DNA from: a virus
Strand: one strand, 5' to 3'
Length of the DNA stretch: 11,943 bases
UHGV virus genome: UHGV-0862314
A model generated the notes under the pieces. That model ran no database searches and had not been told where the DNA came from. It worked only from the letters and a program-made list of their open reading frames with translations. The position numbers were made by a program, and so were the translations under genes. Below, one piece after another: positions 3,776 through 4,171 of this stretch. Numbering within the stretch: the first letter of the stretch is position 1; each line of letters opens with the position of its first letter.

Positions 3776-3910
3776 TTAATTTGCTCCAGATACAAGGAAT
3801 CGCCGCAGAGTGGCTACGGTTGGTGTTTGTTGCATACCGAAACGGTACGATTGTTGATTTGTACAGTAGGTTTTACGATGCCATTCCACCCAACTGGTGA
3901 GGCATCAAGG
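3776..3910. promoter_or_regulatory. Divergent intergenic region between the tailspike start and mnt start; candidate promoter/operator region
   Basis: 135-bp non-coding gap between divergently oriented starts. Contains a short inverted repeat TACCG-AAA-CGGTA at 3835..3847. No confident -35/-10 could be assigned by eye. Confidence 0.3.
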
Positions 3911-4171
3911 ATGTACAGCAAATACGACGAGGCGCAGTTTCACTTGAGACTTCCGCATGAACTTCACGCGAAAATTAAGCAGCGTGCGAAGATGAATAAC
4001 AGGTCGCTGAACTCAGAGATAATTGCAGCGATTGAAGAATCATTGGCTAAACAAAGCTCTGCATCCGGTTACATTGACGATGCAGAGCGTATGGCAGAAC
4101 AACAATCCGATATGGTAAAGAAAATTGTCTTTGATACGTTCAGAGATTTATATAAAAAAGACAGCAACTAA
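3911..4171 (+). CDS. mnt: Mnt-like ribbon-helix-helix transcriptional repressor (Arc/MetJ superfamily)
   Basis: MYSKYDEAQFHLRLPHELHAKIKQRAKMNNRSLNSEIIAAIEESLAKQSSASGYIDDAERMAEQQSDMVKKIVFDTFRDLYKKDSN aligns along its length with recalled P22 Mnt (...NGRSMNSELLQIVQDALSK...TGYRNDAERLADEQSELVKKMVFDTLKDLYKK). GGTGAGG Shine-Dalgarno lies 9 nt upstream of the ATG at 3911. The ORF-track entry 3437..4171 is an over-extension antisense to the tailspike. Confidence 0.8.
   Translation: MYSKYDEAQFHLRLPHELHAKIKQRAKMNNRSLNSEIIAAIEESLAKQSSASGYIDDAERMAEQQSDMVKKIVFDTFRDLYKKDSN

What the first reader, a model, noticed from the sequence alone, without database searches (positions are those of the whole stretch)
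3776..4171. Orphan Mnt-like repressor with no arc/ant, divergently abutting the tailspike gene
In P22 the immI region between gene 16 and gene 9 contains sieA, mnt, arc and ant, and Mnt represses the ant promoter. Here only an mnt homolog remains. It is convergent with the ejection gene end (17-bp gap) and separated by 135 bp from the divergently transcribed tailspike start. Without an antirepressor target, this Mnt may regulate tailspike expression or be a relic.
Basis: partly seen in the sequence, partly recalled or inferred. Interest (0 to 1): 0.5.

Follow-up and report, generated by a model that had tools for sequence, protein, structure and literature searches.

The report
Common mnt-only cassette beside tailspike gene
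The window holds an intact Mnt-type repressor gene, with its own promoter and operator but no arc or ant, next to the tailspike gene of a P22-like prophage; this arrangement is common and already described, and what the lone repressor is for is still unknown.

Summary
An 86-aa Mnt homologue lies at 3911-4171 (+). It sits 135 bp from the divergent tailspike start (3775, -) and 17 bp from the convergent ejection-gene stop (4189). No arc or ant is present.

The arrangement is not unusual. All 133 fetched loci with this mnt allele have it, as do phages Sf101 and IME10, and roughly 6% of complete E. coli genomes carry the allele. A second mnt allele shows the same arrangement in phages L, ST160 and Gally. 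The literature calls this region the "ant moron" and already asks whether the lone mnt of phage L is functional or a remnant.

It is not a relic. pN/pS is 0.17 (0.08 in the DNA-binding domain), and 128 of 131 copies are intact.

A 17-bp dyad, CATACCGAAACGGTACG (3833-3849), sits where P22's mnt operator sits, and it changes together with the recognition residues across four Mnt alleles.

The strong Pant promoter of P22 is absent from the four mnt-only regions scanned, so control of a tailspike promoter is not supported. It is not excluded.

In about 210 loci, the two arc/ant-less alleles never occur with arc or ant, while the P22 allele always does.

This is a known kind of feature, of low interest.

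The parts
3911..4171 (+). mnt homologue, 86 aa: N-terminal ribbon-helix-helix DNA-binding domain plus C-terminal Mnt tetramerisation domain
   Evidence: Pfam PF03869 and PF11423. PDB 1mnt and 1qey. pN/pS 0.17 overall, 0.08 for codons 1-50.
3833..3849 (.). Candidate mnt operator: 17-bp near-dyad CATACC-GAAAC-GGTACG, centre 3841
   Evidence: It occupies the position of P22 Omnt, directly 5' of the ATTG(A/T) -35 element. It is a perfect 6+6 dyad in L085. It is conserved in the JEP4, Serratia and Escherichia sp. loci although the sequence to its left differs. It covaries with the recognition residues across four alleles. Diversity is 0.06 against pS 0.14. Binding was not tested.
3851..3879 (+). 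Inferred Pmnt: TTGTTG (3851-3856), 17-nt spacer, TACGAT (3874-3879). Weak, 7 of 12 consensus positions.
   Evidence: Positional homology to the annotated P22 Pmnt (TTGAGA-17-TATCAT). The block is conserved in the Serratia, JEP4, L and Gally loci. It falls below the threshold of the promoter scan.
3896..3902 (+). Shine-Dalgarno-like GGTGAGG for mnt, 8 nt before the ATG
   Evidence: Read directly from the sequence. Conserved in the alignment.
3776..3820 (-). Conserved tailspike leader with GGAG ribosome-binding site (3784-3787) and small hairpin CCGTAGCCACTCTGCGG (3803-3819). This is the boundary of the mnt module.
   Evidence: The same leader occurs in P22, phage L and the mnt-less prophage of E. 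coli 23CRST047. Matches from mnt-less E. coli prophages stop at about 3808-3820. The fold is not significant (z -1.4).
1566..3775 (-). Tailspike gene: head-binding domain plus SGNH/GDSL esterase domain. Split here into ORFs 2576-3775 and 1566-2630 by a 1-nt deletion near 2604.
   Evidence: Pfam. It is 99.2% identical to the single 736-aa gene of E. coli 23CRST047, with one gap.
4189..6958 (-). gp16-position ejection protein with an SLT transglycosylase domain. Split into ORFs 5639-6958 and 4189-5490 by a 1-nt insertion near 5662. It also carries a 33-nt tandem duplication at about 5789-5854.
   Evidence: Compared with the single 911-aa gp13 of Sf101. Pfam SLT.

Best explanation
This is the minimal 'mnt-only' form of the variable region that P22-like phages carry between the last ejection gene and the tailspike gene. 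The literature calls that region the 'ant moron'. Here it is a self-contained repressor cassette: mnt, its own weak promoter, and a 17-bp dyad operator of a specificity different from P22's.

Shown here:
- The protein has both Mnt domains.
- It is kept intact by purifying selection.
- The dyad sits at the P22 Omnt position and co-varies with the recognition residues.
- arc, ant, sar and the strong Pant promoter are absent.

Inferred:
- An Mnt tetramer, made from the prophage, binds the dyad. The dyad is centred about 45 bp upstream of the predicted Pmnt start and abuts the -35 element, so binding would autoregulate mnt.
- Because the dyad lies about 13 bp before the conserved tailspike leader and in the path of late-operon transcription, the only cis effect left open is damping of read-through into the tailspike gene. 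That could work through bound Mnt or through convergent Pmnt transcription. I give a tailspike effect of any kind about 0.2-0.25.
- Silencing of a cognate antirepressor on incoming phages gets about 0.1, and host or other targets about 0.1.

The confidence figure refers to the core claim: a functional, autoregulated, arc/ant-less Mnt cassette of a known and common type.
For: Identity:
- Both Mnt domains are present.

Prevalence:
- 133 of 133 fetched loci with Mnt at least 85% identical abut the tailspike head-binding domain, and none has arc or ant.
- Phages Sf101 and IME10 and the E. coli E62 and B7A prophages share the arrangement.
- About 43% of 753 matching E. coli records carry the gene, and 147 genomes cover at least 80% of the finding.
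- Phages L (135-bp gap), ST160, Gally, 720R6 and JEP4 also have mnt divergent from the tailspike gene.

Selection:
- pN/pS is 0.17 overall, 0.08 in the RHH domain, and 0.17 in the cargo-less 86-aa class.
- 128 of 131 copies are intact.
- Regulatory-block diversity is 0.055-0.077 against pS 0.139.

Operator covariation:
- PHFNFRM goes with GGTCCAC-C-GTGGACC.
- PQFNLRL goes with GACCAC-N-GTGGTC.
- AQFHLRL goes with ATACC-N5-GGTA.
- PQFNFRM goes with ATATCAC-C-GTGATAT.

No second target: the dyad occurs once in the Sf101 genome.

Literature: PMC2629481 describes the ant moron, with ST64T and ST104 carrying only mnt. PMC8022706 discusses the lone mnt of phage L.
Against: - No binding or transcription data exist for this allele.
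- The palindrome alone is not statistically remarkable (2 matches against 1.4 expected). The case rests on position, conservation and covariation.
- The inferred Pmnt is weak (7/12), and in the commonest variant its spacer is only 15 nt.
- A repressor that only autoregulates has no obvious selective value, so the real output is still missing.
- This prophage has frameshifts in two virion genes, so in this genome the cassette may sit in a defective prophage.
Confidence: 0.8

Rival explanations
1. Mnt controls tailspike expression. It could repress a tailspike-directed promoter left where Pant used to be. Or it could act as a roadblock, or drive convergent transcription, against late-operon read-through just before the tailspike leader.
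For: - The dyad is the only conserved cis site. It lies 66 bp before the tailspike ATG and about 13 bp before the conserved leader.
- Both arc/ant-less Mnt classes always sit next to the tailspike gene.
Against: - No leftward sigma-70 promoter is found in the window, L, Sf101 or Gally at a threshold that detects both P22 promoters.
- The sequence at the former Pant -10 and -35 positions is not conserved between variants.
- Operator-to-ATG spacing varies: 54-66 bp, and far more with HNH or leader insertions.
- The adjacency is explained by the fixed position of the ant moron.
Confidence: 0.22
2. Immunity acting in trans. Prophage Mnt silences the antirepressor promoter of incoming related phages that carry the same operator, protecting the prophage from induction.
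For: This is the established role of Mnt in P22 lysogens (background knowledge; PMC2629481). The gene is selectively maintained.
Against: - In about 210 loci, the AQFHLRL (133) and PQFNLRL (65 plus 4 phages) alleles never occur with arc or ant. All 15 PHFNFRM loci, plus three of the individually examined ones, carry both; two further PHFNFRM loci show arc with no ant hit in the sequence held.
- Among 116 IMG/VR stretches with the exact 16-mer, none without mnt lies in a P22-like ant context.
- So no cognate target is known.
Confidence: 0.1
3. A decaying remnant of a once complete immI region, with no present function.
For: - Arc, ant and Pant are gone.
- The Citrobacter locus L208 has a disrupted copy with a mutated dyad.
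- This prophage carries frameshifts elsewhere.
- PMC8022706 raises this option for phage L.
Against: - pN/pS is 0.17, or 0.08 in the DNA-binding domain, at pS about 0.1-0.14.
- 128 of 131 copies are intact.
- The operator and promoter are conserved above the synonymous rate.
- Two separate arc/ant-less specificity classes each have a matching operator.
Confidence: 0.05
4. An RHH regulator with targets outside the phage (host genes or co-resident elements), or an antitoxin-like protein.
For: - Weak Pfam matches to the HicB and FitA antitoxin RHH families.
- The E62 prophage shows 11 near-matches to the dyad core against 4.4 expected.
- In 27 of 79 unique loci, mnt is followed by a same-strand gene of unknown function, phrog_6067.
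Against: - No toxin partner is adjacent in the window.
- The extra E62 sites lie inside coding genes, lack the conserved AAA centre, and are not seen in Sf101.
- Host-genome scans for a 17-mer were not possible with these tools.
Confidence: 0.08

Closest known systems
Phage P22 Mnt repressor and the immI region (mnt-Omnt/Pmnt/Pant-arc-sar-ant)
   Same: - Same two-domain protein (RHH plus tetramerisation coil), 48-49% identical.
- Same location between the gene 16 and gene 9 homologues, and same orientation.
- A 17-bp dyad directly 5' of the -35 element of its own promoter.
- A roughly 90-bp regulatory block, the same length as P22's arc-mnt intergenic region.
   Different: - No arc, ant, sar or Pant.
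- Three of the four N-terminal positions I recall as DNA-contacting in P22 Mnt (R2, H6, N8, R10; from memory, Knight and Sauer 1989) differ here: Y, Q, H, R.
- The operator is ATACC-N5-GGTA rather than GGTCCAC-C-GTGGACC.
mnt-only ant morons of Salmonella phages L, ST64T, ST104, SE1 and ST160 (PMC2629481, PMC8022706)
   Same: - mnt sits divergently next to the tailspike gene with no arc or ant.
- The intergenic length is an identical 135 bp in L and ST160.
- The same conserved tailspike leader follows the operator after 12-13 nt.
   Different: - A different Mnt allele (PQFNLRL, about 49-56% identical) with operator GACCAC-N-GTGGTC.
- Those phages carry one extra small gene and a terminator between mnt and gene 16. 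The window has only a 17-bp gap.
Shigella phage Sf101 gp14, the unannotated IME10 homologue, and the E. coli E62 and B7A prophages
   Same: - Same allele (93-98% identical), same dyad, and tailspike-mnt-ejection gene order (B7A has an extra gene after mnt).
- E62 matches the whole finding at 98.5%.
   Different: - Most relatives have a 121-bp intergenic variant with another tailspike-proximal leader.
- B7A-type copies are 88 aa and are followed by a gene of unknown function.
- Sf101 gp14 is mislabelled 'partition protein ATPase' in RefSeq, a name that comes from the phrog_795 label.

Membership tests
Mnt repressor family (P22 Mnt) | N-terminal ribbon-helix-helix (Arc-like) DNA-binding domain | tested here: met
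   PF03869, 6.4e-15, residues 7-50. 1mnt, E=5e-20.
Mnt repressor family (P22 Mnt) | C-terminal coiled-coil tetramerisation domain | tested here: met
   PF11423, 3.9e-13, residues 57-82. 1qey, E=3.7e-8. The oligomeric state itself was not tested.
Mnt repressor family (P22 Mnt) | A roughly 17-bp dyad operator next to the -35 element of its own promoter | tested here: met
   CATACCGAAACGGTACG at 3833-3849, followed by ATTGTTG. Positional homology and allele-operator covariation.
Mnt repressor family (P22 Mnt) | Sequence-specific binding and repression | not testable with these tools
   Needs gel-shift, footprint and reporter assays.
P22 immI immunity region | arc gene divergent from mnt | tested here: not met
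   No Arc hit in the window or in 133 related loci. No suitable ORF in 3776-3910.
P22 immI immunity region | ant antirepressor gene under Mnt/Arc control | tested here: not met
   No Ant hit in the window. No antirepressor is annotated in the Sf101 genome or the E62 prophage; the only candidates are a Rha-like gene in Sf101 and a KilA-N gene in E62, each beside the lysis genes.
P22 immI immunity region | Strong Pant promoter overlapping Pmnt, and sar antisense RNA | tested here: not met
   The scan finds Pant (11/12) in P22 but nothing leftward here. Rfam shows no sar.
'ant moron' of P22-like phages (Villafane et al. 2008) | Non-morphogenetic insert between the gene 16 and gene 9 homologues, sharing sequence with other such inserts | tested here: met
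   Located between the SLT ejection gene and the tailspike gene. Homologous to the mnt modules of P22, L and Gally.
Type II toxin-antitoxin RHH antitoxins (HicB/FitA-like) | Adjacent cognate toxin gene in the same operon | tested here: not met
   The mnt stop is 17 bp from a convergent virion gene, and no downstream ORF follows on the same strand. The Pfam matches are weak and cover the RHH domain only.

The most novel reading that the evidence does not exclude
The arc/ant-less Mnt may not be a decay product. It may be a long-lived module in its own right.

- Two Mnt specificity classes have their own co-evolved operators: AQFHLRL with ATACC-N5-GGTA, and PQFNLRL with GACCAC-N-GTGGTC.
- In about 210 loci, neither class is ever found with arc or ant, whereas every P22-type (PHFNFRM) locus examined carries arc, and all but two also ant (those two show no ant in the sequence held).
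- Both classes are always placed directly before the tailspike leader.

This would fit a dedicated function there, such as gating late-operon read-through into the tailspike gene.
Probability: 0.2. Interest if true: 0.45.

Novelty: new member of a known kind. Interest (0 to 1): 0.2.

Why it matters
In itself it matters little. It is an ordinary and very common feature of E. coli and Shigella P22-like prophages, and the arrangement has been published.

The modest value lies in three points not found in the papers I read:
- The lone mnt is under purifying selection.
- Its operator can be read from allele-operator covariation, giving natural Mnt specificities beyond the P22 one.
- Arc/ant-less and ant-linked Mnt alleles do not mix in the loci examined.

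Together these turn the open remark about phage L ("another function or a remnant") into a testable question.

Tried and rejected
- The repeat finder with a 6-nt seed found no inverted repeat in 3740-3960. The dyad arms are too short and imperfect, and it was found by eye and by comparison.
- Rfam gave only a chance-level match.
- The genome-contig scan returned only 6 loci.
- A scan of viral contigs for the exact 16-mer gave 56 stretches without mnt. Most look like chance hits in coding sequence.
- One recurrent phage family (L093 and others) has the 16-mer twice, 515 bp apart, after a TATATA box upstream of small genes. It encodes no similar RHH protein nearby and has no match in the phage or E. 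coli collections, so I dropped it.
- Near-matches to the dyad core are more frequent than expected in the E62 prophage (11 against 4.4). They lie inside genes and are not reproduced in Sf101, so I treated them as chance.
- I looked by eye for a leftward promoter (ATGGCA-16-ACAAAT). It is not conserved in the commonest intergenic variant and was rejected.
- The tailspike leader fold is not significant.
- The Sf101 paper does not discuss the gene.
- Knight and Sauer 1989 is not held in the library.

Full report
**What is there**

The minus strand of the window carries the late-operon end of a P22-like (Lederbergvirus, Sf6/Sf101-type) prophage:
- gp10 homologue, 10298-11716
- tail needle, 9450-10298
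- gp14, 8995-9453
- gp7, 8300-8992
- gp20, 6959-8290
- an SLT-domain ejection protein in the gene 16 position, 4189-6958
- the tailspike gene, starting at 3775

Between the last two, on the plus strand, lies an 86-codon ORF at 3911-4171. It matches the Pfam Arc RHH domain (6e-15) and the Mnt C-terminal domain (4e-13). It also matches the solved P22 Mnt structures 1mnt (5e-20) and 1qey (4e-8). P22 Arc and Ant have no homologue in the window, and Rfam finds no sar RNA.

**How common it is**

The closest phage, Sf101, has the same order: ejection gene, mnt, tailspike. Its mnt is labelled "partition protein ATPase", which comes from the name of phrog_795. IME10 has the gene unannotated.

I fetched 80 IMG/VR loci by protein similarity and more by operator sequence. 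All 133 loci with Mnt at least 85% identical have the tailspike head-binding domain directly upstream and divergent, and none has a separate Arc or Ant hit. In the first sample of 83 loci (the 80 protein-similarity loci plus Sf101, E. coli CUPF06 and the window), the intergenic region is 121 bp in 65 and 135 bp in 6. In nine it is longer (654-728 bp); the two checked, L017 and L018, have an HNH endonuclease gene inserted in the first codons of the tailspike gene.

In complete E. coli genomes:
- 748 of 5426 genomes (753 records) match part of the finding.
- 147 genomes cover at least 80% of it.
- About 43% of evenly sampled rows carry the Arc-family gene, so roughly 300 genomes have this allele.
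- E. coli E62 matches at 98.5% with an identical arrangement.
- The B7A prophage has it with one extra gene after mnt. Villafane et al. list the B7A genome among the sources for their figure of ant morons.

Other mnt alleles are arranged the same way in phages L (135-bp gap), ST160, Gally, 720R6 and JEP4.

**Literature**

Villafane et al. 2008 (PMC2629481) name this variable region the "ant moron". [quoted passage not shown] They also note that the P22 moron is thought to affect tailspike level through read-through, possibly with Mnt and Arc involved.

Zaworski et al. [quoted passage not shown]

**Relic or functional**

- Of 131 copies, 128 have an intact 86- or 88-codon frame.
- Over 65 unique coding sequences, pS is 0.139 and pN 0.024, giving a ratio of 0.17. 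The ratio is 0.08 in codons 1-50, the DNA-binding domain.
- In the class with no gene after mnt (86 aa, 42 unique sequences), the ratio is still 0.17.
- These are pooled pairwise counts, not tree-based, so the numbers are rough. The direction is clear.
- The regulatory block is also constrained. Diversity is 0.06 in the dyad, 0.077 across the -35 to -10 stretch and 0.055 in the 5' UTR. It is 0.20 just left of the dyad and 0.139 at synonymous sites.

"Relic" is not supported.

**The operator**

In P22 the 17-bp Omnt (AGGTCCACCGTGGACCT) lies directly 5' of ATTGAGA, the -35 element of Pmnt. At the same place the window has CATACCGAAACGGTACG (3833-3849), followed by ATTGTTG.

The palindrome alone is not statistically remarkable. 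The comparative evidence is what carries the case:
- The site is a perfect CATACC-N5-GGTATG dyad in L085.
- It is kept in JEP4, a Serratia locus and an Escherichia sp. locus, where the sequence to its left is unrelated.
- It changes with the recognition strand of the protein:

| Recognition strand | Dyad | Examples |
|---|---|---|
| PHFNFRM | GGTCCAC-C-GTGGACC | P22, epsilon34, UPF_BP1, Pluralibacter, Pectobacterium |
| PQFNLRL | GACCAC-N-GTGGTC | L, Gally and 65 IMG/VR loci |
| AQFHLRL | ATACC-N5-GGTA | window type |
| PQFNFRM | ATATCAC-C-GTGATAT | Phlomobacter |

- A Citrobacter copy with a premature stop also has a mutated dyad.

By positional homology, Pmnt is TTGTTG (3851-3856), 17 nt, TACGAT (3874-3879). 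This is weak, and it puts the dyad centre near -45. A GGTGAGG ribosome-binding site lies at 3896-3902.

**Module boundary**

The 45 nt next to the tailspike ATG (3776-3820) are shared with P22, phage L and the mnt-less prophage of E. coli 23CRST047. They include a GGAG site and the small hairpin CCGTAGCCAYGCTGCGG. Matches from mnt-less prophages end at about 3808-3820. The mnt module is therefore mnt plus about 90 bp of control region, the same length as the P22 arc-mnt intergenic region.

**Does it control the tailspike gene?**

The consensus scan recovers both P22 promoters: Pant (TTGACA-17-TATATT, 11/12) and Pmnt (10/12). It finds no tailspike-directed promoter in the window, L, Sf101 or Gally. 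The bases at the former Pant hexamer positions differ between variants. A repressible tailspike promoter is therefore not supported.

The dyad does lie in the path of late transcription, about 13 nt before the leader. A roadblock or convergent-transcription effect cannot be excluded, and it is the only cis output left.

**Trans immunity**

In Sf101 the dyad core occurs once in the genome. No antirepressor is annotated in Sf101 or the E62 prophage; the nearest candidates are a Rha-like gene in Sf101 and a KilA-N gene in E62, each beside the lysis genes.

Across samples, allele and context separate completely:
- 133 AQFHLRL loci have no arc or ant.
- 65 PQFNLRL loci, plus four phages, have no arc or ant.
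- All 15 PHFNFRM loci from the same scan carry both. The five PHFNFRM loci examined individually all carry arc; P22, epsilon34 and UPF_BP1 also carry ant, while the Pectobacterium and Phlomobacter loci gave no ant hit within the sequence held.

No antirepressor is known under either arc/ant-less specificity. This weakens the idea that these Mnt proteins guard against cognate Ant-bearing phages. It also suggests the arc/ant-less state is old and stable.

**Verdict**

This is a functional, probably autoregulated, arc/ant-less Mnt cassette of a known and common type, carrying an uncharacterised operator specificity. Its selected output is unknown. Interest is low.

**State of this prophage**

- Relative to 23CRST047 (99.2% identical), the tailspike gene has a 1-nt deletion near 2604.
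- Relative to Sf101, the ejection gene has a 1-nt insertion near 5662 and a 33-nt tandem duplication.
- The acyltransferase segment 1-1258 is inverted relative to 23CRST047.

Either the prophage is defective or the assembly has indel errors. mnt itself is intact.

Noticed in passing
window 2576-2630, indel near 2604: The tailspike gene is split into two overlapping ORFs (399 aa and 354 aa) by a 1-nt deletion (GATCAGA-TGG against GATCAGATTGG) relative to the 736-aa gene of E. coli 23CRST047. This is either a pseudogene or an assembly error.
   Followed up: partly
window 5490-5662 and about 5789-5854: The SLT-domain ejection gene has a 1-nt insertion near 5662 that splits the frame. It also has an in-frame 33-nt tandem duplication relative to Sf101 gp13.
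   Followed up: partly
window 2576-3775: The tailspike protein joins the P22 head-binding domain to an SGNH/GDSL esterase domain instead of a beta-helix glycosidase, and it sits next to an acyltransferase gene. This suggests a tailspike that deacetylates O-antigen.
   Followed up: no
window 1-1330: Segment 1-1258 (acyltransferase gene) is inverted relative to E. coli 23CRST047, and a 3' fragment of the same gene remains at 1322-1542. The junction at 1241-1330 matches a roughly 90-bp repeat found in thousands of E. coli genomes, often beside IS1414.
   Followed up: partly
window 3776-3820; L005 1059-1226: A conserved tailspike leader with the hairpin CCGTAGCCAYGCTGCGG is shared by P22, phage L, the window and mnt-less prophages. 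In P22 its 5' part is directly repeated, flanking an insert of about 100 bp after the ant terminator.
   Followed up: partly
L017 5027-5756; L018 4591-5246: HNH endonuclease genes are inserted a few codons into the tailspike gene in L017 and L018, splitting off its start. Kapi1, E62 and 23CRST047 carry HNH genes elsewhere in the virion gene cluster.
   Followed up: partly
L093 7579-7594 and 8094-8109; also L099, L119, L129, L152, L161: An unrelated phage family (GC about 54%) has the exact 16-mer CATACCGAAACGGTAC twice, 515 bp apart, each just after a TATATA box and upstream of a small gene. No similar RHH protein is nearby, and there is no match in the phage or E. coli collections.
   Followed up: partly
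L001 4380-4673 (Sf101 gp14) and other RefSeq phage records: Mnt homologues, including P22 mnt itself in NC_002371, are labelled 'partition protein ATPase' in RefSeq phage records. The name is inherited from phrog_795.
   Followed up: yes
L218 3917-4402 and 26 other unique loci: In about a third of window-type loci, an 88-aa Mnt variant is followed on the same strand by a 161-aa protein of unknown function (phrog_6067, no Pfam match). It is probably co-transcribed cargo.
   Followed up: partly
L208 about 5001-7250 (Citrobacter): This locus has a disrupted window-type mnt (stop after 4 codons) with a mutated dyad (ATAGTAC). It lies in an ant moron that also holds a second RHH gene and an Ant-like fragment.
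   Followed up: no
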